Below, in pieces: positions 4,243 through 58,952 of a stretch of DNA of 64,000 nt. The DNA is from Patescibacteria group bacterium. Lineage in GTDB: Bacteria; Patescibacteriota; Patescibacteriia; UBA1558; GWA2-36-10. The notes under the pieces were generated by a model, which was given only the letters and a program-made list of their open reading frames with translations, made no database searches and was not told the origin of the DNA. Location: assembly GCA_041665505.1 (NCBI GenBank), contig JBAYIR010000001.1, positions 83,108 through 147,107 of the forward strand. Direction: 5' to 3'. How positions within the stretch are numbered: position 1 is the first letter of the stretch; each line of letters begins with the position of its first letter. The position numbers and the translations under genes are program-made.

Positions 4243-5805
4243 ATGTCAGATATAAATAAAAAAAATATGCCTTTGGCGCTTTTGATACTGGATGGTTGGG
4301 GTATTTGGAATAAAAAAGAAGGTAATGCCATAGCTCTAGCTCATACACCGGTTATAAATAATCTTTATGAAAAATATCCTAATACCTTACTACAGGCTTC
4401 GGAAAAATATGTTGGCTTACCAGCTAATCAGCCGGGTAATTCCGAGGCTGGGCATATGAATATTGGGGCGGGTCGAGTGATTGAGCAAGACGCGGTTATA
4501 ATTTCCAAGAGTATCAACAATGGCACTTTTTTTAAAAATCCAGCTTTTTTGCAAGCAGCTCATCACGTCAGTGAATATAATTCAGATGTCCATTTGATGG
4601 GGCTTTTGTCTGATGGTTCTAGCCCTCATTCGCACGATGATCATCTTTTATCATTGATTAGTTTTTTTCTTAGTCGGACCAAGCAAAATATTTATCTTCA
4701 TCTTTTTACAGATGGACGTGATTCGCCACCCTTTGCCGCTTTAAAAATTTTGAGTCAATATACTTCAATATTCAATAGCAATAGAGTAAAAATTGCTACT
4801 GTCATGGGGCGTTTTTATGCTATGGACAGAAAAAAATCTTGGCCTAGAACAAAATTAGCTTATGAGGCTTTGGTTATGGGGAAAGGTCATCAAGTTGAAA
4901 ATCCTATTGAAGCGGTAAATCAAGCTTATAATCGAGGGGAAAGTGATGAATATATTTTACCAACAGTCATAGTTGATAAAGATAAAAGTCCGATTGCTAC
5001 TATTAATAGTAATGATGCTTTAGTATTTTTTAATTTAAGATCAGATCGAGCTCGTCAATTGACCAAAATTTTTGGGCAAGAAGATTTTAACAAAAAAAAT
5101 CCAGGTTCATTTAAGTTGATCAAAAAAATTGAAAATTTATTATTTGTGGCTTTGACTGATTTTGGTCCAGATTTAGAAAGGGTGCTAACTGCTTATCCAG
5201 GTATTGATATTTCCGATACTTTACCCATGGCGCTTAAAGATATTAGACAGTGTTATATTGCGGAAACAGAAAAATATGCTCACGTTACTTATTTTTTTAA
5301 TGGTGGTTATGATCATCCAGTTGGTGGTGAAGATTGGGTCAATATTCCATCTAAAGATGTAGCTTCTTATGCCCAAAAACCAGAGATGAGTACTTTTGAA
5401 ATTGCGGAAGAGGTGATAAAATATGTTCAAGAGGATAAATACGATTTTATTATGGTCAATTTTGCTAGTCCAGATATGGTTGGACATACGGGAGATTTGG
5501 CAGCCGGAATAAAAGCAGTAGAATTTGTAGATAAGGCTGTCGGACAAATTATTGATGCTATTTTAGCTAAGCATGGTACTATAATTATTACTGCTGACCA
5601 TGGTAATGTGGAAGAAATGATTAACTTGGAGACCAAAGAAATTGATACTGAGCATTCCAAAAATCCAGTACCACTTATTATTGTTAGCCATGATAATTTT
5701 AAATTAGTGACTAATGGCCAATTAGCAAATATTGCTCCAACTATTTTAGATATTTTAGGCCTGCCTCAACCTAAATTAATGACTGATAAATCTTTAATTG
5801 TTTAA
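4243..5805 (+). CDS. gpmI: 2,3-bisphosphoglycerate-independent phosphoglycerate mutase (copy 1)
   Basis: 520 aa; LLILDGWG, AETEKYAHVTYFFNGG, SPDMVGHTG, ITADHGN motifs of iPGM. Confidence 0.9.
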   Translation: MSDINKKNMPLALLILDGWGIWNKKEGNAIALAHTPVINNLYEKYPNTLLQASEKYVGLPANQPGNSEAGHMNIGAGRVIEQDAVIISKSINNGTFFKNPAFLQAAHHVSEYNSDVHLMGLLSDGSSPHSHDDHLLSLISFFLSRTKQNIYLHLFTDGRDSPPFAALKILSQYTSIFNSNRVKIATVMGRFYAMDRKKSWPRTKLAYEALVMGKGHQVENPIEAVNQAYNRGESDEYILPTVIVDKDKSPIATINSNDALVFFNLRSDRARQLTKIFGQEDFNKKNPGSFKLIKKIENLLFVALTDFGPDLERVLTAYPGIDISDTLPMALKDIRQCYIAETEKYAHVTYFFNGGYDHPVGGEDWVNIPSKDVASYAQKPEMSTFEIAEEVIKYVQEDKYDFIMVNFASPDMVGHTGDLAAGIKAVEFVDKAVGQIIDAILAKHGTIIITADHGNVEEMINLETKEIDTEHSKNPVPLIIVSHDNFKLVTNGQLANIAPTILDILGLPQPKLMTDKSLIV

Positions 5806-5811
5806 AACAAA

Positions 5812-7389
5812 ATGAAAAGACCTCGACCAGTAGTGCTTGTTATATTAGATGGTTTTGGTATTGCGCCTCCTTCGAGAGCCAATGCTATTTCTTTGGCTAA
5901 AACCTCAAACTTTGATAAGTATTCTCAAAATTATCCAATTATGCCACTAGCAGCTAGTGGTGAAGCAGTCGGCCTTTCTTGGGGCGAAATGGGTAATTCT
6001 CAAGTTGGTCATCTTTCTTTGGGTTCTGGGCTAATTCCTTATCAAAATTTGCCTCGTATCACCAAAGCTATTACTGACGGAGAATTTTATAAAAATGAAG
6101 CTTTTCTTAAAGCTTGTGATAATGCTAAAAAAAGCGAAGCGGCTTTGCATATTATTGGTTTAGTCAGCTCCGGTGGAGTGCATAGCTACAATGAGCATTT
6201 GTATTCGCTGATAGAATTAGCTCACCAGCAAAAAGTGGAGAGAATTTTTATCCATGCTTTTTTAGATGGCAGGGATACCCCTTATAATAGTGGTATTAAT
6301 TTTATTAGTAAGTTGCAAGAAAAATTAAAAAATATAGGGACTGGTACTATTGCTAGTTTGAGTGGTCGTTTTTGGGCTATGGATAGAGATAATCGTTGGG
6401 ATAGGGTAGAGAAAGCTTGGCGAGCTATGGTAGACGGAGTATCTGATGAGAAATTTGAAGATCCTTTAGGAGCTATTCAAAAATCTTATGATAAAAAAGT
6501 ATATGATGAGGAATTTGTGCCAACAATAATATTGAATGATTTGGGTAAGCCCAAAGGTCTTATCAAAGATGGTGATAGCGTGATATTTTTTAACTTTAGA
6601 TCAGACAGGGCCAGGCAGCTTACTCAGGCTTTGACTTTACCAGGTTTTGAAAAATTCAAAAGACAGTATTTTAAAAATTTGGTGATGGTCACTATGACCG
6701 AATACGAAAAAGATTTGCCAGTGACAGTAGCCTTTCCACCTTTGGTCATTGAGATGCCTTTGGCTAGAGTTTTGTCTGAAGCAGGATTAAAACAACTTCA
6801 TATTGCGGAAACAGAAAAATATGCTCACGTTACTTACTTTTTTAACGGTGGTCAGGAAAAAATTTATGAAGGAGAGGATAGGGTACTAGTGCCTTCACCA
6901 CAAGTGGTCTCTTATGATCAAAAACCAGCTATGTCATCTAGAGAGCTTACTTCCAAGATAAATCAAGCAGTTAAAGAAGGGCAATATGATTTTATTGTAG
7001 CCAATTATGCCAGTCCAGATATGGTTGGACATACCGGCAATATCCAAGCGACTATAGAGGCTATAGAAATATTGGATCAACTAATTGGCGAATTAGTAGA
7101 TACAGTTTTGTCATACAATGGTTTGGTGCTTATTACCGCTGACCATGGTAATGCCGAAAATCTTTATGACTTGCAGAGTGGTGAGATAAACAAAGAGCAT
7201 TCCAATAATCCAGTACCATTTTTTATTATCGGTGATGATTTTGCTGGCAAGAGTGTCTTAGCTGGTAATGTCGGGACCGATCTCAGTCACGTTACACCAG
7301 TTGGTGTTTTAGCTGATGTGCCACCAACTATACTCAAAATTATGGGTATCAAAAAACCACCAGAAATGACCGGTAGTTCTTTGATTTAA
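5812..7389 (+). CDS. gpmI: 2,3-bisphosphoglycerate-independent phosphoglycerate mutase (divergent tandem paralog)
   Basis: 525 aa; VVLVILDGFG, identical AETEKYAHVTYFFNGG and SPDMVGHTG/ITADHGN motifs; otherwise diverged from copy 1. Confidence 0.9.
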   Translation: MKRPRPVVLVILDGFGIAPPSRANAISLAKTSNFDKYSQNYPIMPLAASGEAVGLSWGEMGNSQVGHLSLGSGLIPYQNLPRITKAITDGEFYKNEAFLKACDNAKKSEAALHIIGLVSSGGVHSYNEHLYSLIELAHQQKVERIFIHAFLDGRDTPYNSGINFISKLQEKLKNIGTGTIASLSGRFWAMDRDNRWDRVEKAWRAMVDGVSDEKFEDPLGAIQKSYDKKVYDEEFVPTIILNDLGKPKGLIKDGDSVIFFNFRSDRARQLTQALTLPGFEKFKRQYFKNLVMVTMTEYEKDLPVTVAFPPLVIEMPLARVLSEAGLKQLHIAETEKYAHVTYFFNGGQEKIYEGEDRVLVPSPQVVSYDQKPAMSSRELTSKINQAVKEGQYDFIVANYASPDMVGHTGNIQATIEAIEILDQLIGELVDTVLSYNGLVLITADHGNAENLYDLQSGEINKEHSNNPVPFFIIGDDFAGKSVLAGNVGTDLSHVTPVGVLADVPPTILKIMGIKKPPEMTGSSLI

Positions 7390-10728: not shown

Positions 10729-10768
10729 AGTAAAAAAATGAGGCGGGCACCTGTGGGGGTGCCCGCCT
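10729..10768 (-). terminator. GC-rich hairpin terminator of foreign ORF 10798..11991 (minus strand)
   Basis: aggcgggcacc-tgtgggg-gtgcccgcct palindrome preceded on plus strand by A7 (T-run on minus), ~30 nt downstream of the minus-strand stop. Confidence 0.6.
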
Positions 10769-10797
10769 TTGTGCGACCTGCGGTCGTACTGCGGATG

Positions 10798-11991
10798 TCA
10801 GTCTCCGTTGACCTCACCAATGATCCGGCGATGGTCACTGGTCTGAGCGACCAGTTTTCCGGCGACGATTGATATCGCCACCAGATCTCCCAGGAGAGTC
10901 ATGTCGAGCAGCTCCTGTGAGCCGTCCCGTCGCAGGAGTACCAGTCGGCTAGCCGACTGAACTCTGATCTCCCGGTACTGACCGGGCTCAGGGGCTATCT
11001 CAGCTACCGGCAGCGTCGGCTCTTGGTCGACGACCGGGGGCCAGATCTGCTGGTTGAGATCGACCGGGGGCCAGATCTGCTGGTCGACATCGACCGGGTC
11101 GATGTCCTGCCGAAGTCGGATTTCTCCGCCCTCGGAAGTGGTGGTTCGCGTACCAACTCGGACGTCGTTGCCACACCTCATCAGTGTGAGCGACGACGTG
11201 CCATCGGAAAGATAGCACCGCCAGGCCGGTTGCCAGTCGGGAATGTTCTTCTGCTGGCTTAGACCGCCAGCATAGCTCACCACCATGGGTCCACGTACGT
11301 CGACGGCCTCAATCCGGTCGATGCTCACTTGGCCGGGGAGCTTGGTTGATTCAGCGACCGTCATTGCGTTGCGCTCTACCTCGTACTGCCGAGCGAAGTG
11401 CTCAGCCGCTGTTTGGGCGGTTAGGATGCCGCCTGGCGCCTGATCTGGCCCCGAGTAGGGGTCAGCCATCTGTCGGAGGTAGCCTTCTTCGATCTCGTTT
11501 TGTCGACGATTGTCTTCCGCATCAGCATGCTGGGCCCTCTGGATGCCTTTACCTAGCAGGTAGGCCAGCGTAAACACCGCCATGATGACCGTGATGGCCA
11601 TCATCCAGCGTACCAAGGCGGGTGCCGTGGATCTTTCGGCCTGAGTCGTCGGCAGAGGAGATACAGTGGTGTCGGCCGGAATGGTCGGCACCATAGCATC
11701 GAGGCTAGCTCTTCGGAATTCGAAGAGGCGAACCAATGATGCTGGGATGATCAGCTTGTCACCAGGAATAATCATGTCCGGATCCGCCAGTTGCGGATTG
11801 GACTTGACCAACTCGGCCCACAAGCTCTTCTCTCCGAACGCCACTTGCCACTGACCGAGACGGTCAGCATCATCAACGATATACTCGCCGGATCCGTCGG
11901 CGAGCTTGTAAAGCCCACCTTCCGGAACCTGAGCACCGCAGATGCTGACGATGGTCAGTAGTAGCATGGCGCAGGACAGAATCCGTAGCAT
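10798..11991 (-). CDS. high-GC secreted/membrane protein: signal peptide, LysM-like motif, TM helix, C-terminal domain with tandem QQIWPPV repeat (foreign cassette A1)
   Basis: Start likely ATG 11991 (GGAGG at 12003..11999, 7-nt spacer), giving 398 aa, rather than the track start 12078. MLRILSCAMLLLTIVSICGAQ signal peptide; WAELVKSNPQLADPDMIIPGDKLIIP resembles LysM C-terminal half; hydrophobic LVRWMMAITVIMAVFTLAYLL. GC far above neighbours. Confidence 0.55.
   Translation of the reverse strand: MLRILSCAMLLLTIVSICGAQVPEGGLYKLADGSGEYIVDDADRLGQWQVAFGEKSLWAELVKSNPQLADPDMIIPGDKLIIPASLVRLFEFRRASLDAMVPTIPADTTVSPLPTTQAERSTAPALVRWMMAITVIMAVFTLAYLLGKGIQRAQHADAEDNRRQNEIEEGYLRQMADPYSGPDQAPGGILTAQTAAEHFARQYEVERNAMTVAESTKLPGQVSIDRIEAVDVRGPMVVSYAGGLSQQKNIPDWQPAWRCYLSDGTSSLTLMRCGNDVRVGTRTTTSEGGEIRLRQDIDPVDVDQQIWPPVDLNQQIWPPVVDQEPTLPVAEIAPEPGQYREIRVQSASRLVLLRRDGSQELLDMTLLGDLVAISIVAGKLVAQTSDHRRIIGEVNGD
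11039..11098. repeat. perfect-ish 30-bp tandem direct repeat inside cassette A1 (ggccagatctgctggt[t/c]ga[g/c]atcgaccggg x2)
   Basis: Seen directly; encodes VDVDQQIWPP / VDLNQQIWPP on minus strand. Confidence 0.7.
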
Positions 11992-12143
11992 AATGCTACC
12001 TCCAAAATGAATAGGGGAAACTTCAGTTACAGGGATCTGTAACCGGGAAGATTGAAATGTTTTTCGCTCTTCCCCCAAATACCCTATAGATACTTGGGGT
12101 AAAAGCGAATATTAACTTATAAATTGGCACTATACAATATATA

Positions 12144-12172
12144 ATTGTAACATATTTTTATAATTATGTCAA
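12144..12172 (-). promoter_or_regulatory. near-consensus sigma70 promoter TTGACA-17-TACAAT driving cassette A1 (minus)
   Basis: plus tgtcaa 12167-12172 and attgta 12144-12149, 17-nt spacer. Confidence 0.5.
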
Positions 12173-12203
12173 TACAATAAAATTGAGCTTAAGTTGTTTA
12201 TTA

Positions 12204-12232
12204 TTGACAATTATTATATTTTATGATATAAT
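12204..12232 (+). promoter_or_regulatory. perfect consensus sigma70 promoter TTGACA-17-TATAAT driving cassette A2
   Basis: ttgaca 12204-12209, tataat 12227-12232, spacer exactly 17; AGGAGG at ~12288 then ATG 12303. Confidence 0.6.
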
Positions 12233-12302
12233 ACTATATTGGTTCGAGAACTGAAGTCTGTAAACCTGGCCAAGAAATTGGCCTTACCAGGAGGAAAGAA
12301 TC

Positions 12303-13037
12303 ATGTTGTTTAACAAGAACACTTCCAAGAAGCTTGCTCAGGGTTTTCTGATTCTGATCGGGTCGTTGTTGATTCTGGCTGTCGTCATCGCCTTGGTCGG
12401 CGAGGCCAAGGCTGGTCCGATTCCGCGCTGGGATCACAACAGTGACATTGGTATCTGGAACGAGAGCACCCACCCGCCGCGGGCAGAGGTCAGACTCAAC
12501 CTGATCAACGCCCAATCCACTGGTGTGGAATCTCGTCTCCAAGGCGTCTGCTACGACCTCCTGGAGAAGAAGGACAAACCCTACTACCTGTACTTGGGCT
12601 TCGGCTTCCAGAGCGGACACCTGGACATCGAACCGGCTCTTGGCTGGTCCTTTCGCGACAATGAGTGGGTGGCGGCCTTTCGCACTTATCCCGAGTGGGA
12701 GAAGTGGCGGGGCTACTCCAACTGCGAGTATCAACTCGAGACCAAGAGCTGGTACTATTTGGCTCAAATCGAAACCCACTTCAACCACTGGGTAGAGTGT
12801 GGTGCCGAGATGGAGGGTTGGGGCGACATCGACGACCAGTTGACCAGCAATGGTGCTGGTATCAATGTTGTTTTCAACACCCATCCGCGGTGGGGCAATC
12901 CGGACTCAAAACTCCGGATAGAAGCTGGCCTTCAGCTCCGAGAGATGGACTCGAAGTACAAACCGCAGCTCATCGTTCGATTCATATTTAGCCCGGAGAT
13001 GGAGGAGCACACGCCAGATCCTAGGAGGTGGAGATGA
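12303..13037 (+). CDS. high-GC hypothetical protein, N-terminal TM/signal anchor, Trp/Gly/Tyr-rich beta-type domain (foreign cassette A2)
   Basis: 244 aa; LAQGFLILIGSLLILAVVIALVG hydrophobic N-terminus; strong SD; first ~10 codons AT-richer than remainder; no family recognised. Confidence 0.55.
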   Translation: MLFNKNTSKKLAQGFLILIGSLLILAVVIALVGEAKAGPIPRWDHNSDIGIWNESTHPPRAEVRLNLINAQSTGVESRLQGVCYDLLEKKDKPYYLYLGFGFQSGHLDIEPALGWSFRDNEWVAAFRTYPEWEKWRGYSNCEYQLETKSWYYLAQIETHFNHWVECGAEMEGWGDIDDQLTSNGAGINVVFNTHPRWGNPDSKLRIEAGLQLREMDSKYKPQLIVRFIFSPEMEEHTPDPRRWR

Positions 13038-13042
13038 CATTT

Positions 13043-13088
13043 GGCCCGCCGCGTGCAACAGCATGCGGCGGGCCTCAACTTTTGTCTT
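13043..13088 (+). terminator. GC-rich hairpin terminator of cassette A2
   Basis: ggcccgccgc-gtgcaacagcat-gcggcgggcc followed by tcaacttttgtctt. Confidence 0.55.
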
Positions 13089-13229
13089 AGTTATAACAGG
13101 ATTGACAATATTTTATTTTTACTATATAATAATCACATAAATTCCTAGAAGGGCTAGGAAGTAAATAATTAAATAGCCAAAGACAGTAGGTTTCTAGCTA
13201 ATATTAGCCAAGAATTAAATATCCTGCCG

Positions 13230-13295
13230 AGGTAGAAAATTTTAAGTTTTTCAACTGTCTGCGCTATTTACGCAGATTTTTTTAATAAAAAATAT
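13230..13295 (+). promoter_or_regulatory. candidate rplJ (L10) leader with attenuator-like hairpin
   Basis: tctgcg-ctattta-cgcaga hairpin plus T7 run ending ~13289 just before rplJ ATG; L10 leaders are autoregulatory in many bacteria (established knowledge), identity here is inference. Confidence 0.3.
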
Positions 13296-23075: not shown

Positions 23076-23150
23076 GGCCCCATCGTCTAACGGTTAGGAC
23101 GTCAGGTTCTCAACCTGGCAATCAGGGTTCGATTCCCTGTGGGGTCACCA
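23076..23150 (+). tRNA. tRNA-Glu (anticodon CTC), CCA encoded
   Basis: Cloverleaf folded by hand: acceptor GGCCCCA/TGGGGTC, D-loop AACGGTTA, anticodon loop TTCTCAA, T-loop TTCGATT. Confidence 0.75.
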
Positions 23151-23151
23151 A

Positions 23152-23228
23152 GGGCATGTAGCTCAGTTGGTTAGAGCACTACATTCACATTGTAGGGGTC
23201 GAAGGTTCGAATCCCTCCATGCCCACCA
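23152..23228 (+). tRNA. tRNA-Val (anticodon CAC), CCA encoded
   Basis: Acceptor GGGCATG/CATGCCC, anticodon stem CTACA/TGTAG with loop TTCACAT, T-loop TTCGAAT. Confidence 0.75.
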
Positions 23229-23383: not shown

Positions 23384-23430
23384 TTTTGTTGAAAAAAGAA
23401 GGCCGCCGCCACGTCAGACGTGGCGGCGGC
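23384..23430 (-). terminator. GC-rich palindromic terminator of cassette B1
   Basis: gccgccgccacg-tcaga-cgtggcggcggc 12-bp stem; A-run on plus (T-run on minus) at 23391-23397. Confidence 0.6.
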
Positions 23431-23445
23431 ATGAAGCGATATGAC

Positions 23446-24111
23446 CTAGCCGAGGTCGGCTTGGTCGAGGAGGCTCTTCTCGTATCTCTCGGCCACTTCG
23501 AGCTGATGCATCAGCCCATCGATGGCCATCTGGATGAGGTCTTCCCGGCAGGTCGGGACAGCTACAAAGCGTCTAGCCGCTTTGTCAGTTGGGAACATCA
23601 CAACCATCCACCAGCCTGCGGTAATTCCGCCGATTCCTTTGACCTTGCTACCGTAGGTGGTTGCCTTACCATCGACGATATCGTCGGGATTCTCCAAGCC
23701 GTAGCCATGGAAGCAGCGATAGTCGGGACCATGACGCTTGAATCGCAGGACCGCCACGACGGGTATTCTCACGTATTGATGGTACGTGGCAGCAGAGCAG
23801 CTGGTCGCCCTGACGATCTCGTTGTAGAACCCATCTTTGCGCTGAATTCTGATCAGCTGGTCAGAGAGGTCTCCCAGGACCGTCTTGATCTCCGAGCTGT
23901 CTGCAATCGGCCGTGCTATGACCGTGGTGGCCTGGGGGTTGACCTTGATGTCCAGCAGTGCAAAGCCGGCTTTTGCCAAGCTGATGGGGGACTCCGGATC
24001 GAGGGTGCCAGTAGCTACATCGTCTCTACCGATTCCCCAACGAAAACAATGATTGCCGTCGAGCCGTACCACACCAGTGGTGTAGATGGGGTCACAATTT
24101 TGTGCCTGCAT
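23446..24111 (-). CDS. high-GC hypothetical cytoplasmic protein (foreign cassette B1)
   Basis: Preferred start ATG 24111 with GGAGG(24123..24119)-7 nt-ATG, giving 221 aa; track start 24147 lacks SD. Natural-looking composition, unlike the plus-strand antisense ORF 23386..24153. No family recognised. Confidence 0.5.
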   Translation of the reverse strand: MQAQNCDPIYTTGVVRLDGNHCFRWGIGRDDVATGTLDPESPISLAKAGFALLDIKVNPQATTVIARPIADSSEIKTVLGDLSDQLIRIQRKDGFYNEIVRATSCSAATYHQYVRIPVVAVLRFKRHGPDYRCFHGYGLENPDDIVDGKATTYGSKVKGIGGITAGWWMVVMFPTDKAARRFVAVPTCREDLIQMAIDGLMHQLEVAERYEKSLLDQADLG

Positions 24112-24193
24112 TGGGAATCCTCCAGATTTAGTTGCATTTGTCTGCATTTATGATGCCTGCTGGCACCATTGTTCCTAGAGTTAGGAACAAAGT

Positions 24194-24222
24194 ATTATAC
24201 TATTATTTATTTTTTTTGTCAA
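24194..24222 (-). promoter_or_regulatory. perfect consensus sigma70 promoter TTGACA-17-TATAAT driving B1 (minus)
   Basis: plus attata 24194-24199, tgtcaa 24217-24222, 17-nt spacer counted. 5' UTR begins with 7-bp hairpin gttccta-actc-taggaac. Confidence 0.6.
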
Positions 24223-24235
24223 TGGTTGTTATATT

Positions 24236-24278
24236 TAAAGAAAATTAAGACCGCCGCGCATCCAGGGACGCGCGGCGG
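24236..24278 (-). terminator. GC-rich hairpin terminator of cassette B2
   Basis: ccgccgcgc-atccagggac-gcgcggcgg 9-bp stem, A/T-rich tract on minus side after hairpin. Confidence 0.55.
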
Positions 24279-24290
24279 CTACGGAGGATA

Positions 24291-24791
24291 CTACGGAAGT
24301 ATCTTCCAGACGGTAGGATTTCTTTTCCGGAAACTCTTGATGCTCTGCTCTCGGTGCATATTTTTGGCCAACACTACGGCCAAGATCAGAAGCATCAGAG
24401 CCATGAGGCTCTTGAACAGAGCCAAAATCCCTTGACCTAAAGGAGCGTGGATGGTGTGGACGGACATCGTCGCAACCAGTTTGTCTCCTTTGGTCTCGTA
24501 GACCATGAACTGGTACTGACCGAAGACGATCAGTGCTTCTTCGCCACTTTTGATGGTGGCGAGGTGCCGGCTGTTCTTGATGACCTTGAAGTAACACTCC
24601 TTGGAGTCGATGGTGACCAGCGCATGTTCGCTAATCTTGAAATCGACACTGTCGCCGTCCCGAAGGACAGCTCCAGTCACAGGAATCCGGTCATTCTCCG
24701 AACGAATATGGAGCTCGATAGCTCCTTCGCTCGCACGGACGACGGTGGTGGCACAGATCAGAATGGCGATGGTCAGAAGAAGAGTCTTCAT
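24291..24791 (-). CDS. high-GC secreted protein with N-terminal signal peptide and C-terminal TM anchor (foreign cassette B2)
   Basis: 166 aa; MKTLLLTIAILICATTVVRASEG signal peptide; C-terminal LMALMLLILAVVLA hydrophobic helix; AAAGGA SD 8 nt before ATG. Confidence 0.5.
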   Translation of the reverse strand: MKTLLLTIAILICATTVVRASEGAIELHIRSENDRIPVTGAVLRDGDSVDFKISEHALVTIDSKECYFKVIKNSRHLATIKSGEEALIVFGQYQFMVYETKGDKLVATMSVHTIHAPLGQGILALFKSLMALMLLILAVVLAKNMHREQSIKSFRKRNPTVWKILP

Positions 24792-24894
24792 GTCGCGAGT
24801 CCTTTCGCTTGCAGTTTCAGGTTCCTTCCCTCTTTATTTTAAAGGCTTTTGAGCCTTTTGTGACGTCAATGAGCTTGCTTTAAGCAATTATCTA

Positions 24895-33730: not shown

Positions 33731-33890
33731 AAATATATTTGATTCAGCCATTCGCGAAGGGCTGGATTGACAAAATGGGGTTTTTGTGTTAAAAATTATA
33801 GTTATTCGCGATTCATAGGCTTTGGGCTTATGGGTCACTGTTCCCCAGGCAAGTTGAAGCACCCCGAACCGAACATGGAGGTTTTAAGTC

Positions 33891-34613
33891 ATGACTCGCA
33901 AGCCCGTGATTCAAACAGCTCTCGAAAGCCTTGACCGTCAGATTGATGACAGAGTGGTCATCGACATTGACGGCGATGTGGATGAGGCCCAGCACATGCT
34001 TTACGCGTTTCGCACTTCGGTGGAAGAGGTGATCTTCGAAGGAGACAACACCGAAGAGTGTCGTCGGCAGTGCCTGGCCAACCTGACCAAGGTCGGCTAC
34101 CTGGAAGAGGCCATCAAGGAGTTGATGACTTTCTCCAAGCGGAGTCGGCGAGCGGTTCGTCGGTGGCTCTATGGGGAAGTTGTTCCTCAGCGAGTTGATT
34201 GGCTGCGGTGGCAGTACTGGCTTCGCGCCAAGGGGTACTACACGCGCGAGCTTGACCACATGCCCAACAGCTTCTTCCAGTTGCGCAAGCACATCCTCTG
34301 TGGCGATATCAGCTTCGCGGTTGCCGCCAAGGAGCTTGGTTGCACTCAGAAGGTTCTTCGGGGCATTCTGAACAATGAGGTGGACAGAGCTGTGATCATC
34401 AGTATCATCGGCAATGTCCACCATCTGGTGGCCAAGATCAACCGGCAGATCAGCCATCGGGAGATTGTCGGTTACATGGAGGTCTATTTGGATTCCGACG
34501 GCGAGTTTGCCGAAGTGAATCGGCGCTACAACCTGGACAACCAGAAGCGTCGTCGTAAGGTGGCTCACAAAGCTGCCAAGGCTCGCCGCAAGGCCAGGTC
34601 TTCCAAGAGCTAG
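33891..34613 (+). CDS. high-GC hypothetical protein with strongly basic C-terminal tail (foreign cassette C)
   Basis: 240 aa; GGAGG 9 nt upstream of ATG; C-terminus KRRRKVAHKAAKARRKARSSKS suggests nucleic-acid binding; TTGACA at 33767 with weak TAAAAA -10 at 17 nt; GC-rich hairpin 34638-34670 downstream. Opposite-strand ORF 33828..34568 judged antisense artefact. Confidence 0.5.
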   Translation: MTRKPVIQTALESLDRQIDDRVVIDIDGDVDEAQHMLYAFRTSVEEVIFEGDNTEECRRQCLANLTKVGYLEEAIKELMTFSKRSRRAVRRWLYGEVVPQRVDWLRWQYWLRAKGYYTRELDHMPNSFFQLRKHILCGDISFAVAAKELGCTQKVLRGILNNEVDRAVIISIIGNVHHLVAKINRQISHREIVGYMEVYLDSDGEFAEVNRRYNLDNQKRRRKVAHKAAKARRKARSSKS

Positions 34614-42818: not shown

Positions 42819-44438
42819 ATGAATAAAAAAGTCATCAAATTTGTCTATTTTAGCTTTCTACTCCTTACACTGATGTCAGTGTCTGCTTGTGGCAAGAAGG
42901 ATAAAGAGGAAGATAAAGTAGAAATAAAGAAAAAAGTGCAAGTACAGAATATTGTTAAGCAGAATGAAGTCACTTCTAACTTACTATTAAGTGCCACAGT
43001 AGTACCTCAAGAATATAGTATTATTCGTTCACTTAGTCCTGGCACAGTAGAGTTTTTAGCACCAGTGGGTTCAGAAATATCTGCTGGGCAAGCTTTATTT
43101 TCCATTAGAGATTCAGGTATAGAAAATAATTATTTTAATACTTTACAGAGTTTTCAACAGACTCAGATTGTCAGTAGTCAAGGTATTTCTCAAGCTGAAC
43201 TTAGTCTAAATAGTGCCAAGGCTAGGTTAGATTTATCCAGGATACAATACAATAATACGATTATTCAAACTGAGCAGGCTCTAGCTAACACTCAAGATTC
43301 AGCGGTGGCAAATTATAATTCGGCTTATAATACTTTAAAACAGTTTTATTTATTTTTAAATAAAGATTTGGATTTAAGAGATAAAGAATATGTATATAAT
43401 GACCTTTTAACTCCTCAAATTCAATTAAAGTCAGATTTAAATCTAAAATTTAATAATTCGCTGGATTATTTTAATGGAATAGCTAATACAGTAACGGTTG
43501 ATGATGTTAGAGAAAATATGCCAAGATTACAACAAGCCTTGGCGCTCAGCAAAGACGTAGTAGATGATACTGTAATTTTACTCCAGAGCGCAGTGAGTAG
43601 TAATATGTTTCCTACTCTGACTATAGAATCTGATAAAGGCACTATGATTAGTTATCAAGCCACTATTAATACTCATTTATCAGGAATAATTGCCGCTATC
43701 AATTCTATAGTAAACACAGGCTCTTCAAATAATTTAGCCATTAATAATGCTCAATCACAGTTAGATTTAGCGGAAATAGAATATAAGAATTCAGAGATTG
43801 CTTTGCAGAACTCCAAAGATGGAGCTAATCTTCAAACTAGTGCTATGCAATCACAGCTTGATCAAGCCGCTTACAATTATAATAATTTGACATTATCATC
43901 ACCTTTTTCTGGGACTATATTGTCTCATTTCGTCGCTATAGGAGAGCAAGTCTCAATGGGCCGTGAACTAATAGAGATAGGTAATCTTTCGTTAGTGGAA
44001 ATGACCGTTGATATGGATGTTGAATTTGCTAAAGCAGTTAAATTGGCTGATGAAGTAAAGATTAATAATAAATATACTGGCCTGATAACTGAAATAGAAC
44101 CTATTGGAGATCTGACTAGCGGTAAAGTCAGTGTTACAGTTCAAAGTCAACCAGGCGATGAAGATTTATCAGCTGGTAGTATTGCGGAATTGGAATTTAT
44201 TTTACATTATGAAAGTGTTGAAGCTATAGTTATTCCTATAAAATCAGCCACTATTGAATCTTCTGGTAATTATGTCTATGTAGTAGTAGACGGCAAAATT
44301 TCTAGAAAAAATGTTACTTTAGGTCAGATTTTTGGAGATAAGGTGTCTGTTTTAAGTGGTTTAACAGAGGGGGATAAATTGGTAATTTTAAATGGCGTAT
44401 TTGTATCTAATGACGAAGCAGTAGATATTATTGAATAA
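42819..44438 (+). CDS. RND efflux periplasmic adaptor (membrane-fusion protein, HlyD family) lipoprotein
   Basis: 539 aa; signal peptide with lipobox LMSVSAC; long coiled-coil; C-terminal beta-barrel region LSSPFSGTILSHFVAIGEQVSMG. Confidence 0.7.
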   Translation: MNKKVIKFVYFSFLLLTLMSVSACGKKDKEEDKVEIKKKVQVQNIVKQNEVTSNLLLSATVVPQEYSIIRSLSPGTVEFLAPVGSEISAGQALFSIRDSGIENNYFNTLQSFQQTQIVSSQGISQAELSLNSAKARLDLSRIQYNNTIIQTEQALANTQDSAVANYNSAYNTLKQFYLFLNKDLDLRDKEYVYNDLLTPQIQLKSDLNLKFNNSLDYFNGIANTVTVDDVRENMPRLQQALALSKDVVDDTVILLQSAVSSNMFPTLTIESDKGTMISYQATINTHLSGIIAAINSIVNTGSSNNLAINNAQSQLDLAEIEYKNSEIALQNSKDGANLQTSAMQSQLDQAAYNYNNLTLSSPFSGTILSHFVAIGEQVSMGRELIEIGNLSLVEMTVDMDVEFAKAVKLADEVKINNKYTGLITEIEPIGDLTSGKVSVTVQSQPGDEDLSAGSIAELEFILHYESVEAIVIPIKSATIESSGNYVYVVVDGKISRKNVTLGQIFGDKVSVLSGLTEGDKLVILNGVFVSNDEAVDIIE

Positions 44439-47400
44439 TTTTATGGAAGATAGAGATATTAAAAAAGAGCCACAAGCTAAAGATCATTTTGCCCAAAAGG
44501 CCATTGCCAAAACTCGCCAGAATTTTATGGGTTATTTTGTAACTCATTTTAGAGTAGTGACTTTAGTTATAGCCGCTATTATTATTTTGGGTAGTTTTGC
44601 TTTGTTTAATATTCCCCGTGAGTCAGATCCAGAAGTCAAGATTCCTATTGCTGTGGTTAGTACTTTCTATCCAGGTGCCAGTCCCTTGGATGTGGAAAAT
44701 TTATTGACTGACGAAATAGAAAATAAATTAGAAGAATTGGATAATATAAAATTAATTACCTCTACTTCTAGAAATAGTCTTTCTTCTATAGTAGTAGAAT
44801 TTGAAGCAGAAGCGAATTTAGAAGATAGTATTCGGGAATTAAAAGATAAGGTAGGAGAGATTGCTGCTTTACCTGATGAGGCTGAAGAGCCAGTAGTTAC
44901 TCAAATCAGAGCTAATGATTATCCAGTTATTACTTTTTCTTTATCTGGTGATTTGACAGATAATCAGTTTAAGCAATTAGGAGAAATAGTACAAGATGAA
45001 TTGGAGGGAATTTCTGGAGTTTCAAAAGTACCTCTGCTAGGAGTGAGAAATAAGGAATTTTCTGTTTTGGTCAATAAAACTGCTTTGTCACGGCTCAATA
45101 TTTCTTTGTCACAAGTAGTAGGGGCTATTAGAGCTTCTAATCTGGACTTGCCTTTAGGAGATATAGATATAGACTCTTTGCATTATAATATTAGATCAAT
45201 AGGTAAATTAAATTCTATTGAAGATTTAAATAAAGTAGTCATAGCTAGTGACCAGGGGCGGGCTATCTTTTTGCAAGATATTGCTCAAGTTAGTGAACAA
45301 TTTGTTGAGAGGAAAAACATTTCTCGTATTTCTATAAATGGGGAGAAGGCTCAAGAAAATATTTCTTTACAAATTTATAAAAAAACAGGTGGAAATATTT
45401 TGGATATTGTAGACTCGGCCAAAAATAAAGTACAAGAGCTGCAAACAAAAAAAATCATACCAGCGGAAGTAAAAATAGAAATTAATAGTGATTATTCTTC
45501 TTTTATCCGTGAGGATTTAAATACTTTAGGTAGTAGTGGTATACAATCTACAGTTTTGATATTTATAGTAATGTTTATTGCCTTGAGTTTTAAGGAAGCT
45601 ATTATTGCTCTGTTTGCCATTCCAGTGACTTTATTGGTCACTATTATGGCTTTATATTTTTCCGACTATACCTTAAATAGTATGTCTTTATATGCCTTGG
45701 TGCTTTCTTTGGGCCTCTTAGTGGATACTTTTATAGTGGTGTTAGAAGGAATATTTCATAATATTAGGGAAGGGTATTCTTCTACCAAAGCTGCTCTTTT
45801 GTCGCTAGCTCATTATAGTGGACCAGTGACCTCAGGTATGTTGACTACTGTAGCGGCCTTTTTCCCAATGCTTTTAGTTAGTGGAATTTTGGGTGAATAT
45901 CTAAAGATTTTTCCTATTACTATTGGTATTACTTTGACCGCTTCTTTGTTTGTCTCTTTGATTTTAGTACCTTCATTTGCCGCTGTTTTCTTGAAAAAGG
46001 GTCAATTTGTGGGTGGCACAAAAGAGAGTATTTTGGAAAGGTATTTTACTAATCGTTTGAGAAAAGTATATAAGAAAAATATTGCTATATTTTTACGAAG
46101 TAAAAAATTGAAACTAAAATTTTCTATTGTTTTGACAATATTGTTTATCAGCTCTTTAGGACTTTTAGTTACTCAAGTTATACCAGTTCAATTATTCCCC
46201 AAAATGGATGCTGATTTTGCTTATATAGATATCAAAATGCCCATTGGTAGCAATTTAGAAAGTACTAGCCAGATACTTAGCAAGGTTGAAGAAAAACTTT
46301 ATCAGTATCCAGAAATTAAAAATTTTGTTAGTACAGTTGGCCAATCATCTAGTATGGGTTCCTTTGAGGCAGGTAGTTCCAGTGAGCACTTAGCTAGTAT
46401 TTCTATAGATTTTGTCAAGAAAGAAGACAGAGGAAAGAAAAGTTATGATATTGTTGAAGAAATTAGAGAAGACATCAAAACTATCAATGAGGGTGAAATA
46501 AGTATTGCTGAATTGTCCGGGGGACCACCTACTGGTTCGCCTATAGAAGCCAGAATTAGTGGTGAAGATCTTCAGGTCTTGGATCAAATCTCCACTAGGG
46601 TTAAAACTATTTTAGCCAATACACCTGGCGTCATCAATGTTGATAGTAATCAAGATTTATCACCAGCTGATTTGACCTTCCGTTTGAATAAAGAGACAAT
46701 AGCCAAGTCAGGCCTCACTGTCAGTGAAGTGTCAAATCTTTTGAGAACAGCTATTTTTGGAGTGACGGCTACAGAAATATCTCAAGATAATAAAGATCTT
46801 GATGTGGTAGTTAAGTTTGATAAAAATAAAATTGACTCCATAGAACAGATTAAAAATTTATCTTTGGTAAATAATTTGGGGCAAGAAGTAAAGTTGTCTT
46901 ATCTAGCTGATTTTTCTTTGGAGCCAGCTTTGGCAATTATCAATCATAGAGAATTTGAAAGGACTATTAGTATTACTGCTGATTTAGAATCTGGGTATAC
47001 AGCTGCCAAAATAGTGCCAGTAGTGGAAGCAGCTATTAAGCAAGAGGGCATAGCTCAGGGCTATACAGTCAATTTTGGTGGAGAAGTAGAGGATATTGAA
47101 CAGTCTTTTTCAGAATTATGGAGTGCTATGATAGTAGCAGTGTTGTTAATTCTGATTATTTTGGTATTGGAGTTTGATTCATTCATTAGAACTGGCATCA
47201 TATTATTTACTTTGCCACTGATGTTGATTGGTGTGGTAACTGGTATGTTGATATTTGATTTGCCATTTAGTTTTATGGTTTTCCTAGGCTTGGTATCACT
47301 AGCAGGTATTGGGGTAAATGACGCTATAGTCTTAATGGATAAAACCAAGAGAAATATTGAAGAAATGGGTATGTCATCTATTGAGGCAGTGATAGATGCT

Positions 47401-47640
47401 GGAGATACTAGATTGCAACCAATTATGCTTACTACTATTACTACTATTATTGGTGTGGTACCTTTGGCCTTTGCTAATGAATTTTGGGTAGGGCTTTCTA
47501 TTTCTATAATTTTTGGTTTGGCCTTTGCTACAGTGCTTCAACTTTTTGTGGTGCCAATGCTTTTTGTCAAATTTGAAGGGTCTAAACTTGATAAAAAAAG
47601 AGCAGAAGCAGATGAGAGTATTATTAAGTATCAAAAATAA
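44431..47640 (+). CDS. RND superfamily efflux permease (AcrB/MMPL-like)
   Basis: 1069 aa; 12 TM pattern with two large periplasmic loops; 8-nt overlap with adaptor gene. Confidence 0.85.
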   Translation: MNNFMEDRDIKKEPQAKDHFAQKAIAKTRQNFMGYFVTHFRVVTLVIAAIIILGSFALFNIPRESDPEVKIPIAVVSTFYPGASPLDVENLLTDEIENKLEELDNIKLITSTSRNSLSSIVVEFEAEANLEDSIRELKDKVGEIAALPDEAEEPVVTQIRANDYPVITFSLSGDLTDNQFKQLGEIVQDELEGISGVSKVPLLGVRNKEFSVLVNKTALSRLNISLSQVVGAIRASNLDLPLGDIDIDSLHYNIRSIGKLNSIEDLNKVVIASDQGRAIFLQDIAQVSEQFVERKNISRISINGEKAQENISLQIYKKTGGNILDIVDSAKNKVQELQTKKIIPAEVKIEINSDYSSFIREDLNTLGSSGIQSTVLIFIVMFIALSFKEAIIALFAIPVTLLVTIMALYFSDYTLNSMSLYALVLSLGLLVDTFIVVLEGIFHNIREGYSSTKAALLSLAHYSGPVTSGMLTTVAAFFPMLLVSGILGEYLKIFPITIGITLTASLFVSLILVPSFAAVFLKKGQFVGGTKESILERYFTNRLRKVYKKNIAIFLRSKKLKLKFSIVLTILFISSLGLLVTQVIPVQLFPKMDADFAYIDIKMPIGSNLESTSQILSKVEEKLYQYPEIKNFVSTVGQSSSMGSFEAGSSSEHLASISIDFVKKEDRGKKSYDIVEEIREDIKTINEGEISIAELSGGPPTGSPIEARISGEDLQVLDQISTRVKTILANTPGVINVDSNQDLSPADLTFRLNKETIAKSGLTVSEVSNLLRTAIFGVTATEISQDNKDLDVVVKFDKNKIDSIEQIKNLSLVNNLGQEVKLSYLADFSLEPALAIINHREFERTISITADLESGYTAAKIVPVVEAAIKQEGIAQGYTVNFGGEVEDIEQSFSELWSAMIVAVLLILIILVLEFDSFIRTGIILFTLPLMLIGVVTGMLIFDLPFSFMVFLGLVSLAGIGVNDAIVLMDKTKRNIEEMGMSSIEAVIDAGDTRLQPIMLTTITTIIGVVPLAFANEFWVGLSISIIFGLAFATVLQLFVVPMLFVKFEGSKLDKKRAEADESIIKYQK

Positions 47641-49366: not shown

Positions 49367-49442
49367 GCCGGAATAGCTCAATTGGTAGAGCAGTGGCATC
49401 GTAAGTCATTGGTTGGGGGTTCAAGTCCTCTTTCCGGCTCCA
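49367..49442 (+). tRNA. tRNA-Thr (anticodon CGT), CCA encoded
   Basis: GCCGGAATAGCTCAATTGGTAGAGCAGTGGCATCGTAAGTCATTGGTTGGGGGTTCAAGTCCTCTTTCCGGCTCCA; anticodon loop ATCGTAA; stems include G.U pairs. Confidence 0.7.
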
Positions 49443-58826: not shown

Positions 58827-58946
58827 TTCGACTCCGTCCCGCTAAAGCGGGACTTCGCTCATGGTCTTCATCCTCACCGCCATAGGCGGTTCGGATTGCG
58901 ACCACTTTTCTAGGAGTCGAATGCCCTGAGCGAAGTCGAGGGGCAT
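58824..58946 (+). ncRNA. conserved structured tRNA 3'-trailer element, copy 3 (divergent, with compensatory stem changes)
   Basis: TTCGACTCCG then hairpin gtcccgc-taaa-gcgggac (vs gttctgc-tc-gcagaac in copies 1/2), conserved ACTTCGCTCA...TGAGCGAAGT pair, TGGTC/GACCA stem carrying an inserted ccgcc-ata-ggcgg hairpin, perfect 11-bp closing helix CATTCGACTCC/GGAGTCGAATG. Confidence 0.5.
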
Positions 58947-58952
58947 AATAAA

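What the first reader, a model, noticed from the sequence alone, without database searches (positions are those of the whole stretch)
10729..13088. Island A: divergent two-gene high-GC cassette (LysM-like secreted/TM protein with 30-bp tandem repeat, plus beta-rich membrane-anchored protein) sharing an AT-rich control region with two consensus promoters
Both genes are transcribed outward from a ~220-bp AT-rich spacer holding TTGACA-17-TACAAT (minus) and exact TTGACA-17-TATAAT (plus). Each gene ends in a GC-clamp terminator. The plus leader contains a 6-bp stem with a GAAA tetraloop just 5' of AGGAGG. A1 has a signal peptide, a peptidoglycan-binding LysM-like motif, one TM helix and a C-terminal domain with a duplicated QQIWPPV unit, suggesting a cell-envelope function. 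A2 is Trp/Tyr/Gly-rich like an outer-membrane or secreted beta-protein, which would be odd in a monoderm CPR host.
Basis: partly seen in the sequence, partly recalled or inferred. Interest (0 to 1): 0.75.

Follow-up and report, generated by a model that had tools for sequence, protein, structure and literature searches.

The report
GC-rich envelope gene pair in Patescibacteria
Two divergently transcribed genes of an ultra-small (CPR/Komeilibacteria) bacterium encode a wall-binding membrane protein and a porin-like beta-barrel that is unexpected in a cell thought to have one membrane. They have kept a GC-rich codon usage foreign to the rest of the genome through long vertical descent.

Summary
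Window 10741-13085 holds two intact genes, A1 (10798-11991, minus strand) and A2 (12303-13037, plus strand). Their GC3 is 0.67-0.71, against 0.20-0.31 in the host genes. Back-to-back consensus promoters drive them and each ends in a GC-rich hairpin.

The pair is not a recent island. It sits in the same yceG|rplJ slot in at least four Komeilibacteria genomes. Its tree matches the tree of the flanking genes, and its synonymous divergence equals theirs. Synonymous GC-to-AT and AT-to-GC changes are balanced (22 vs 20; 6.4:1 expected under host bias). The GC-rich codon usage is therefore actively maintained, and I could not determine why.

- **A1:** signal peptide, divergent LysM domain, one transmembrane helix, then about 220 cytoplasmic residues with no detectable relatives.
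- **Distribution:** every named member of either family is from Patescibacteria.
- **A1 leader:** a conserved RNA, not in Rfam, pairs with the ribosome-binding site and the start codon.

The most likely function is a tightly regulated, wall-anchored surface module, possibly a pore. Which membrane the barrel enters is unknown.

The parts
10741..10768 (-). Intrinsic terminator of A1 (11-bp stem, 9 GC pairs, followed by a T-run)
10798..11991 (-). A1 coding sequence, 397 aa: signal peptide, LysM, transmembrane helix, cytoplasmic domains. GC 0.59, GC3 0.67.
   Evidence: The exact protein is on record from ENA and Logan contigs and from NCBI (WCV71_00520).
11932..11991 (-). A1 signal peptide (about aa 1-20; family consensus ...GAQA)
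   Evidence: hydropathy; alignment
11743..11889 (-). A1 divergent LysM domain (aa 35-83, beta-alpha-alpha-beta), predicted to lie outside the membrane
11551..11619 (-). A1 transmembrane helix (aa about 125-147), followed by a positively charged helix to about aa 176. This charge pattern places the C-terminus in the cytoplasm.
11062..11463 (-). A1 conserved central domain (aa 177-310; motifs DPYSGP, PAW-C, CGNDV, Q-WP). No structural or sequence relatives were found.
11031..11098 (-). In-frame 30-bp tandem repeat (2.3 copies) that duplicates QQIWPPV(D) in the inter-domain linker. The 80%-identical orthologue in L006 has a single copy.
10810..10983 (-). A1 C-terminal small beta domain (aa 337-394)
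11986..12111 (-). Conserved 5' leader RNA of A1. It has a long hairpin P1, an anti-SD(CUUCCC):SD(GGAGG) helix that encloses hairpin P2, and a small hairpin P3 over the AUG.
   Evidence: no Rfam family
12144..12172 (-). A1 promoter, TTGACA-17-TACAAT (11/12 matches); hexamers invariant in 4 genomes
12204..12232 (+). A2 promoter, TTGACA-17-TATAAT (12/12 matches, TG-extended); hexamers invariant in 4 genomes
12268..12283 (+). A2 leader hairpin GGCCAA-GAAA-TTGGCC, 5' of SD AGGAGG (12289-12294). L009 has compensatory changes. L010 lacks the hairpin.
12303..13037 (+). A2 coding sequence, 244 aa: signal peptide or anchor (aa 9-37, AKA|G), then an 11-12-stranded beta-barrel (aa about 46-229), then a 15-aa charged tail. 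GC 0.55, GC3 0.71.
13043..13085 (+). A2 3' GC-rich hairpin (14-nt arms, 4-nt loop) with a weak T-run; probable terminator
   Evidence: (I8)

Best explanation
Island A is a long-resident, vertically inherited two-gene surface module of Komeilibacteria. It is built from two protein families whose named members are all Patescibacteria.

Shown:
- A1 is a single-pass (bitopic) membrane protein. Its divergent LysM domain, which would bind peptidoglycan, lies outside the membrane. About 220 residues of novel domains lie in the cytoplasm.
- A2 has a signal peptide and is predicted to fold as a single-chain 11-12-stranded beta-barrel. Its size, strand length and strict apolar/charged alternation match outer-membrane porins and autotransporter barrels.
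- Both genes are transcribed from back-to-back consensus sigma-70 promoters.
- The A1 mRNA carries a conserved leader that pairs an anti-SD sequence with the SD and encloses the start codon.
- The GC-rich codon usage is at a stationary state rather than decaying.

Inferred:
- After Sec export, A2 inserts into a lipid layer as a pore or anchor. A1 tethers the site to the wall and couples it to the cytoplasm.
- Expression is kept off by default through the leader, because a free barrel or pore is dangerous to a cell with a single membrane.
- The module serves surface interaction with a host cell or with phage. This would fit the fast protein evolution of A1.
- The pair probably entered the Komeilibacteria ancestor from a high-GC Parcubacteria lineage. 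Its composition has since been held by selection, for example for a structured, stable or slowly translated mRNA, and not by recency.
For: Reality and residence:
- The same contig structure is seen in independent assemblies.
- The arrangement yceG | A1 <- -> A2 | rplJ is present in the window, L006, L007/L009 and L010/L013.
- The Komeilibacteria A1 copies form one clade, and its topology is congruent with the yceG tree.
- The 4-fold-site distance from the window to L009 and L010 is 0.82 and 1.15 for A1 and 1.08 and 1.09 for A2, against 0.7-1.46 for the flanks.

Composition:
- GC4 of A1 is 0.61-0.64 in the window, L006 and L009, against 0.12-0.35 in the flanks.
- Polarised synonymous changes are 22 S>W vs 20 W>S, where 6.4:1 is expected under host bias (P=1e-7).
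- Codon preference is inverted, for example TTC 68% vs 7%.
- The A1 mRNA is more structured than synonymous-codon shuffles (z=-6.7), and the excess is spread over 15 of 18 windows.

A1:
- LysM evidence.
- Model with pLDDT 74.7.
- Positive charges lie C-terminal to the transmembrane helix.
- dN/dS is 0.45 overall: 0.14 in the LysM region and 0.85 in the linker/TM region.

A2:
- Model with pLDDT 73.8 and pTM 0.66, with 11 long antiparallel strands.
- All 11 strands alternate an apolar face (0-18% polar residues) with a face that is mostly charged or polar (22-76%).
- One of 11 family members hits Pfam OMP_b-brl at E=0.0026.
- dN/dS is 0.14.

Distribution:
- A1 has 12 clusters in 5.8 billion proteins. 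A2 has 66 representatives in 1.84 billion.
- Every named member of either family is from Patescibacteria: Komeilibacteria, Uhrbacteria, and a Giovannonibacteria-like lineage.

Leader RNA:
- Folding z=-5.3.
- The consensus structure has 38 pairs, 7 with compensatory changes.
- A covariance model built from 5 sequences finds untrained leaders in L015 and L011 (36 and 32 bits). It scores 126-133 bits on the sense strand of the four Komeilibacteria leaders it was trained on, against 31-40 bits on their antisense strand.
Against: - No function has been tested. The AlphaFold models rest on shallow alignments of 11-12 sequences.
- CPR cells that have been described are monoderm (PMC8871954), so there is no obvious membrane for a porin-like barrel. 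No BAM-type insertase was looked for at genome scale.
- A 15-residue charged tail follows the last A2 strand, unlike classical outer-membrane proteins.
- A1 and A2 are separable. A1 occurs without A2 in L011, L012 and L015. A2-like genes occur without A1 in L019 and L020. A physical A1-A2 partnership is therefore only inferred from divergent co-location.
- GC3 of the pair is lower in some lineages: 0.38 in L017, 0.40 in L019 and 0.46-0.54 in L010. Maintenance of GC is not uniform.
- The parsimony polarisation used a diverged outgroup.
Confidence: 0.5

Rival explanations
1. A recent horizontally acquired cassette from a high-GC donor that has simply not yet ameliorated (the 'island' reading).
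For: - There is a sharp compositional step, with a foreign codon usage.
- The A1 family is native to 56-57% GC Parcubacteria genomes (L022, L024, L025).
- Transfers within Patescibacteria are reported to be common (PMC12455944).
- Other genes come and go in the same slot.
Against: - Synteny is conserved in at least four genomes whose flanking proteins are only 77-92% identical.
- The A1 tree is congruent with the yceG tree.
- Synonymous divergence equals that of the flanks.
- S>W and W>S changes are balanced, P=1e-7 against host-bias decay. With 0.4-0.5 substitutions per site per lineage, the ancestor would have needed GC3 above 1.
- There is no integrase, tRNA or flanking direct repeats.
- Promoters and leaders are conserved within the clade.
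Confidence: 0.07
2. A2 is a secreted or wall-associated soluble beta-barrel, such as a ligand-binding or lipocalin/avidin-like protein, and not a membrane pore. A1 is an unrelated LysM membrane protein that merely shares a promoter region with it.
For: - The host is thought to lack an outer membrane.
- A1 and A2 occur independently of each other in other genomes.
- A2 has a charged C-terminal tail that is atypical of outer-membrane proteins.
- No Pfam outer-membrane family reaches its threshold.
Against: - The model has 11-12 strands of 8-14 residues and no core-filling helix.
- One face of every strand is almost free of polar residues and rich in aromatic residues. The other face is up to 76% charged or polar, the pattern of a water-filled lumen.
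Confidence: 0.22
3. A host-directed effector. A2 is exported and inserts into the outer membrane of the bacterial host of this epibiont, forming a nutrient conduit. A1 anchors the contact site to the epibiont's own wall.
For: - A porin-type barrel is found in a lineage with no outer membrane of its own.
- The proteins evolve fast, as expected for an interface under conflict (A1 40-48% identical where the flanks are 75-80%).
- Translational control is tight.
- Named members of both families are all Patescibacteria.
Against: - Nothing is known about the host or about contact with it.
- No secretion apparatus lies next to the genes.
- A2 itself is under ordinary purifying selection (dN/dS 0.14).
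- Single-chain barrels are not known to transfer between cells.
Confidence: 0.1
4. A prophage remnant, lysis cassette or anti-phage defence cassette.
For: - Weak PHROG hits of A1 to an endolysin LysM region (E=0.004) and to an Rz-like spanin over the TM and charged helix (E=0.014).
- The genes have atypical composition and their own promoters and terminators.
Against: - There are no PADLOC hits.
- IMG/VR viral contigs hold no relative of either family.
- The neighbourhood has no phage genes.
- The position is stable and chromosomal.
Confidence: 0.03
5. An assembly or binning chimera that joins high-GC DNA from another organism into an AT-rich contig.
For: One Logan contig of 2528 bp carries only the island, so assemblies can break at the GC boundaries.
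Against: - The same junctions are found in independent assemblies from different samples and pipelines: a 350-kb ENA contig, a 44.6-kb Logan contig, NCBI contigs of 291 and 375 kb, a 255-kb RIFOXYD1 scaffold, and JGI Ga0208375 at 269 kb.
- The AT-rich promoter spacer lies inside the island.
Confidence: 0.01

Closest known systems
KdgM/NanC-type 12-stranded outer-membrane porins (e.g. VhGalP 8xua, KdgM 4pr7)
   Different: - Identity is only 5-10%, and no Pfam KdgM hit was found.
- A 15-residue charged tail follows the last A2 strand, where these porins end in a terminal aromatic residue.
- The A2 host lineage is described as monoderm.
- Named A2 family members are all Patescibacteria.
Inverse autotransporters (intimin/invasin, type Ve secretion)
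   Different: - Here the LysM domain and the barrel are on two separate polypeptides.
- A1 has a truly hydrophobic transmembrane helix, and the positive-inside rule places its C-terminus in the cytoplasm.
- There is no IAT_beta or Big-domain Pfam hit.
- A1 and A2 also occur separately.
LysM-domain wall-binding proteins (SafA, YneA, Kbp, Ecp6)
   Same: The A1 family profile aligns to the solved SafA LysM domain at E=6e-7, including the motif ...NP.L..P..I.PG..L.IP. The model shows the beta-alpha-alpha-beta fold.
   Different: - Pfam and NCBIfam scores are below the curated cut-offs.
SD-sequestering leaders (RNA thermometers such as ROSE or fourU; riboswitch expression platforms)
   Same: A pyrimidine-rich anti-SD pairs with GGAGG, and the start codon is enclosed in a hairpin.
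   Different: - No Rfam family matches, even at E up to 10.
- An upstream 20-bp hairpin P1 has a 3' arm that is itself SD-like, which offers an alternative pairing.
- The ligand or signal is unknown.
- The motif is so far found only upstream of A1-family genes.
Compositionally atypical genomic islands undergoing amelioration (Lawrence-Ochman model)
   Same: GC and codon-usage anomaly with sharp borders.
   Different: - The pair is vertically inherited.
- It has no mobility genes.
- Synonymous changes are balanced rather than biased towards AT.

Membership tests
LysM domain (Pfam PF01476) | Score at or above the Pfam gathering threshold | tested here: not met
   13.5 bits against a cut-off of 20.9. 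9 of 12 family members give sub-threshold hits, best E=0.0023.
LysM domain (Pfam PF01476) | Profile-level sequence similarity to experimentally solved LysM domains | tested here: met
   SafA 7r1l E=6.2e-7, Kbp E=1.7e-3, Ecp6 and other LysM chains. TIGR02899 E=7e-8.
LysM domain (Pfam PF01476) | Beta-alpha-alpha-beta fold of about 45 residues | tested here: met
   AlphaFold model: E35-38, H45-52, H55-69, E79-82, pLDDT 75-87
LysM domain (Pfam PF01476) | Binds peptidoglycan or chitin glycan | not testable with these tools
   Needs a pull-down with purified sacculi
Outer-membrane beta-barrel proteins (KdgM PF06178, OMP_b-brl PF13505, Autotransporter PF03797, IAT_beta PF11924) | Sequence membership in a curated outer-membrane protein family | tested here: not met
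   Only 1 of 11 members gives a weak OMP_b-brl hit (E=0.0026). No KdgM, autotransporter or IAT_beta hit was found. No PDB sequence hit.
Outer-membrane beta-barrel proteins (KdgM PF06178, OMP_b-brl PF13505, Autotransporter PF03797, IAT_beta PF11924) | Closed antiparallel barrel of 8 or more long strands, structurally superposable on known outer-membrane proteins | tested here: met
Outer-membrane beta-barrel proteins (KdgM PF06178, OMP_b-brl PF13505, Autotransporter PF03797, IAT_beta PF11924) | Dyad repeat with an apolar, aromatic lipid-facing side and a polar lumen side | tested here: inconclusive
   The alternation is strict in all 11 strands. Which face points outward could not be read, because no coordinates were available.
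Outer-membrane beta-barrel proteins (KdgM PF06178, OMP_b-brl PF13505, Autotransporter PF03797, IAT_beta PF11924) | C-terminal beta-signal ending in a terminal aromatic residue | tested here: not met
   The last strand ...QLIVRFIF ends in F, but 15 further residues follow it (SPEMEEHTPDPRRWR). The tail is conserved as TPK.DEHT..RR.
Outer-membrane beta-barrel proteins (KdgM PF06178, OMP_b-brl PF13505, Autotransporter PF03797, IAT_beta PF11924) | The host has an outer membrane and a BAM/Omp85 insertase | not tested
   Only the 64-kb window and short loci were available. The literature describes CPR as monoderm (PMC8871954). The window does hold an AcrB plus HlyD-type pair.
Horizontally acquired genomic island | Atypical base composition and codon usage | tested here: met
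Horizontally acquired genomic island | Mobility signatures (integrase, tRNA target, flanking direct repeats) | tested here: not met
   None in the gene tables or the repeat search
Horizontally acquired genomic island | Patchy presence among close relatives, and a phylogeny discordant with the flanks | tested here: not met
   The pair is present in the same slot in all sampled relatives that span it. L019 keeps only the A2 homologue. The tree is congruent with the flanks.
Horizontally acquired genomic island | Ongoing amelioration towards host composition | tested here: not met
   22 S>W vs 20 W>S changes, P=1e-7 against the host-bias expectation
Inverse autotransporter (type Ve) | LysM, 12-stranded barrel and passenger on one polypeptide, with the passenger exported through the barrel | tested here: not met
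   Two separate genes. A1 has a hydrophobic transmembrane helix and its C-terminus is predicted to be cytoplasmic.
Known cis-regulatory RNA families (Rfam 15) | A covariance-model match | tested here: not met
   Nothing at the gathering threshold. Only chance-level miRNA hits appear at E up to 10.
Phage lysis or defence cassettes | Match to PHROG or PADLOC families, or presence on viral contigs | tested here: not met

The most novel reading that the evidence does not exclude
Patescibacteria possess their own family of true transmembrane, porin-like beta-barrels, of which A2 is one of at least 66 clusters. If so, either some CPR lineages have an unrecognised outer lipid layer, or these epibionts export single-chain barrels into a host's outer membrane. 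In addition, these surface genes, together with the other GC-rich cassettes in this genome, are written in a separate GC-rich codon usage. Selection holds that usage in place as a regulatory or mRNA-stability device, and the A1 family is further gated by a new class of SD-sequestering leader RNA.
Probability: 0.2. Interest if true: 0.85.

Novelty: new variant of a known kind. Interest (0 to 1): 0.62.

Why it matters
CPR/Patescibacteria make up a large share of bacterial diversity, yet their envelope and the way they connect to host cells are poorly known.

- **Porin-like barrels.** A family of porin-like barrels limited to this phylum would bear on how these cells exchange material. It would also bear on the debate over which bacterial lineages have one membrane and which have two.
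- **Composition.** Vertically inherited genes that hold GC3 near 0.7 in a genome at 0.25, with balanced synonymous change, contradict the usual assumption that atypical composition marks recent transfer. This offers a clean natural system for measuring selection on synonymous sites.
- **Leader RNA.** The A1 leader is a candidate new regulatory RNA motif with covariation support.

Tried and rejected
- Rfam found only the L10 leader and tRNAs at the gathering threshold, and nothing credible in the spacer at E up to 10.
- Pfam, NCBIfam, PADLOC and PHROGs gave only sub-threshold LysM-type hits for A1 and nothing for A2.
- The AlphaFold-database library (afdb50) was not available. The A1 cytoplasmic domains were therefore compared only with the PDB.
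- My first guess for the A1 start (11994) was one codon off and was not on record.
- The A2 profile does not match the signal-peptide-bearing beta-rich neighbours of A1 in the high-GC loci, and they have no Pfam hit either. They are at most analogues.
- No viral relatives were found.
- No flanking direct repeats were found. The D1 'repeat' is only the similarity between consensus promoters.
- The A2 leader as a whole is not more structured than shuffled sequence (z=-0.77). Only the small hairpin is conserved.
- Six literature searches found no description of outer-membrane-like barrels or of non-ameliorating GC-rich genes in CPR.
- Reads were not available, so copy-number variation of the 30-bp repeat could not be checked. 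The identical A1 protein occurs in a second sample, and the L006 orthologue has one copy.

Full report
**Checking the observation**

The window is about 34% GC. Between 10741 and 13075 the GC content rises to 0.55-0.62 inside two ORFs and falls back to 0.31 in the spacer between them. A1 is 10798-11991 on the minus strand (397 aa; the ATG is at 11991, not 11994). A2 is 12303-13037 on the plus strand (244 aa). GC3 is 0.67 and 0.71, against 0.20-0.31 in eight host genes. Codon preference is inverted: TTC 68% vs 7%, TAC 78% vs 12%, AAG 75% vs 17%.

- **Promoters.** They lie at 12204-12232 (plus strand, 12/12 matches) and 12172-12144 (minus strand, 11/12).
- **Repeat.** The 30-bp tandem repeat is at 11031-11098.
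- **Terminators.** The A1 terminator is at 10768-10741. The A2 3' hairpin is at 13043-13074.
- **A2 leader hairpin.** The GAAA hairpin is at 12268-12283.

The island sits between the yceG/mltG terminator and the promoter and L10 leader (RF00557, 13159-13291) of rplJ-rplL.

**It is real, and it is old**

The exact proteins are on record from a 350-kb ENA contig, from an NCBI MAG (Patescibacteria, WCV71_00520) and from a Logan contig of a second sample. The order yceG | A1 <- -> A2 | rplJ recurs in L006 (A1 80%, A2 82%, YceG 92% identical). It also recurs in the Komeilibacteria MAGs L007/L009 (47%, 58%, 78%) and L010/L013 (40%, 53%, 77%). In L019 the slot keeps only a 36%-identical A2 homologue.

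Several tests point to vertical descent:
- The Komeilibacteria A1 copies form one clade, and its branching matches the YceG tree.
- Distances at 4-fold sites from the window to L009 and L010 are 0.82 and 1.15 for A1 and 1.08 and 1.09 for A2. The flanking genes give 0.7-1.46.
- There are no mobility genes or flanking repeats.
- No relatives were found on viral contigs.

Chimeric assembly is excluded by at least five independent assemblies.

**The composition is maintained, not decaying**

GC at 4-fold sites of A1 is 0.61-0.64 in the window, L006 and L009, despite about one substitution per site between them. The flanks are at 0.12-0.35. I polarised synonymous changes in the window and L006 lineages with L009 as outgroup. 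This gives 22 GC-to-AT against 20 AT-to-GC changes in A1 plus A2. Under the host's bias the expected ratio is 6.4:1 (P=1e-7). With 0.4-0.5 substitutions per site per lineage, an ancestral GC3 above 1 would be required.

Recent transfer followed by amelioration is therefore rejected for these lineages. GC3 is lower in L010 (0.46-0.54), L017 (0.38) and L019 (0.40), so the force is not uniform.

One partial clue is mRNA structure. The A1 mRNA is more structured than synonymous-codon shuffles (z=-6.7, spread over 15 of 18 windows). A2 and two other island genes give z of about -2.4, and yceG gives -1.8. The cause remains unexplained.

A probable ancient source exists. The A1 family is native to 56-57% GC genomes (L022, L024, L025). 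The L20 protein of L022 is 97% identical to that of a Candidatus Giovannonibacteria genome. Transfers within Patescibacteria are reported to be frequent (PMC12455944).

**A1**

The family has only 12 clusters among 5.8 billion proteins. Its architecture is conserved:
- a signal peptide (...GAQA);
- a divergent LysM domain;
- a variable linker;
- one transmembrane helix preceded by PWW and followed by a strongly basic helix, which places the C-terminus inside the cell;
- a conserved central domain (DPYSGP, PAW-C, CGNDV, Q-WP);
- a small C-terminal beta domain.

dN/dS between the window and L006 is 0.45 overall. It is 0.14 in the LysM region, 0.85 in the linker/TM region, 0.27 in the central domain and 0.45 at the C-terminus. 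The flanks give 0.06-0.19. The 30-bp repeat duplicates the linker motif QQIWPPV, and L006 has one copy.

**A2**

The model (pLDDT 73.8, pTM 0.66) has an N-terminal hydrophobic helix ending in AKA|G and eleven long antiparallel strands. A probable twelfth strand lies in a low-confidence segment.

- **Strand pattern.** Every strand alternates an almost purely apolar or aromatic face with a face that is 22-76% charged or polar.
- **Sequence.** No curated outer-membrane family is matched, apart from one weak OMP_b-brl hit in 1 of 11 members. A conserved charged tail follows the last strand.
- **Selection.** dN/dS is 0.14.
- **Distribution.** A profile search of 1.84 billion representatives finds 66 relatives, mostly 185-205 aa. 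Named or placeable ones are Patescibacteria, such as Uhrbacteria and L019/L020.

CPR cells that have been described are monoderm (PMC8871954). It is therefore an open question which membrane such a barrel would enter.

In the high-GC relatives, A1 is again flanked by signal-peptide-bearing, beta-rich proteins that end in F or L. These are not detectably homologous to A2.

**Regulation**

Both promoters are invariant in four genomes. The A1 5' UTR is better conserved than the protein. It has four structural elements:
- a 20-bp hairpin P1;
- an anti-SD (CUUCCC or CCUCCC) paired to GGAGG;
- an inner hairpin P2, enclosed by that anti-SD:SD helix;
- a small hairpin P3 over the AUG.

Folding gives z=-5.3. 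The consensus structure has 38 pairs, 7 of them with compensatory changes.

A covariance model built from five leaders detects the untrained leaders of A1 homologues in two other lineages (36 and 32 bits). On the four Komeilibacteria leaders it was trained on, it scores far better on the A1 sense strand (126-133 bits) than on the antisense strand (31-40 bits). The motif is therefore an RNA rather than a DNA operator. It is absent from Rfam. The 3' arm of P1 is SD-like and could compete for the anti-SD, which suggests a switch. This last point is inference only.

**Interpretation**

The best-supported reading is a tightly controlled surface module. A1 would tether the site to peptidoglycan and reach into the cytoplasm. 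A2 would be a porin-like barrel.

A physical partnership is inferred only from divergent co-location, and each gene also occurs alone. The combination of LysM with a 12-stranded barrel recalls inverse autotransporters. Membership fails, because there are two polypeptides and the A1 C-terminus is cytoplasmic.

The main rival is that A2 is a soluble barrel. Recent transfer, a prophage or defence cassette, and assembly artefact are poorly supported.

Noticed in passing
window 23386-24842, 33828-34613, 58840-59420: Three more GC-rich cassettes (GC3 0.65-0.71): genes 24291-24791(-), 23446-24147(-), 33891-34613(+) and 59124-59414(+). Each has its own near-consensus promoter in AT-rich DNA, a GC-rich leader, a GGAGG and a GC-clamp terminator. 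None has a Pfam, PADLOC, PHROG or NCBIfam match. Two lie just downstream of tRNA genes. The same maintained GC-rich codon usage may apply to them, but their orthologues were not examined.
   Followed up: partly
window 42819-47640: An HlyD-type membrane-fusion protein (42819-44438) next to an AcrB-family RND pump (44431-47640). This pairing usually spans a periplasm towards an outer-membrane channel, which is notable in a supposed monoderm that also encodes a porin-like barrel.
   Followed up: no
L006 6608-6910; L007 6243-6803; L019 6001-6618: The yceG|rplJ slot gains and loses genes. L006 has an extra GC-rich PHA_gran_rgn gene (E=2e-14). L007/L009 has an AT-rich HD-domain gene. L019 has only an A2 homologue on the plus strand, with GC3 0.40.
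   Followed up: partly
L024 3892-4743 and 6611-7171; L025 3522-4124: In 56-57% GC Parcubacteria-like genomes, the A1 homologue lies in a run of small unannotated genes. These include signal-peptide-bearing, beta-rich proteins that end in ...AITAL, ...ASVNF and ...ASVNL, which resemble outer-membrane protein C-termini. They have no Pfam hit and do not match the A2 profile.
   Followed up: partly
L002/L005 (Logan SRR6484324_400196, 2528 bp): A contig from a second sample consists of the island alone, with the assembly breaking at both GC boundaries. Short contigs may therefore over-represent such GC-rich genes and hide their AT-rich context.
   Followed up: no
window 23076-23228 and 49367-49442: This AT-rich genome keeps tRNAs dedicated to G-ending codons (Glu-CTC, Val-CAC, Thr-CGT). 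Two of them lie directly upstream of GC-rich island B. This may be relevant to decoding of the GC-rich genes.
   Followed up: no
window 59621-60928: A 435-aa secreted protein with four repeats of about 75 aa that contain LAICDHNGDGxRNLSDVSxFA (dockerin/EF-hand-like). It has no Pfam hit.
   Followed up: no
window 13159-13291: A ribosomal protein L10 leader (RF00557, 59.7 bits) lies immediately downstream of the island. It is preceded by a perfect TTGACA-17-TATAAT at 13102-13130, so that promoter belongs to rplJ and not to the island.
   Followed up: yes
window 4243-7389: Two tandem paralogues of cofactor-independent phosphoglycerate mutase (520 and 525 aa), conserved in the relatives.
   Followed up: no
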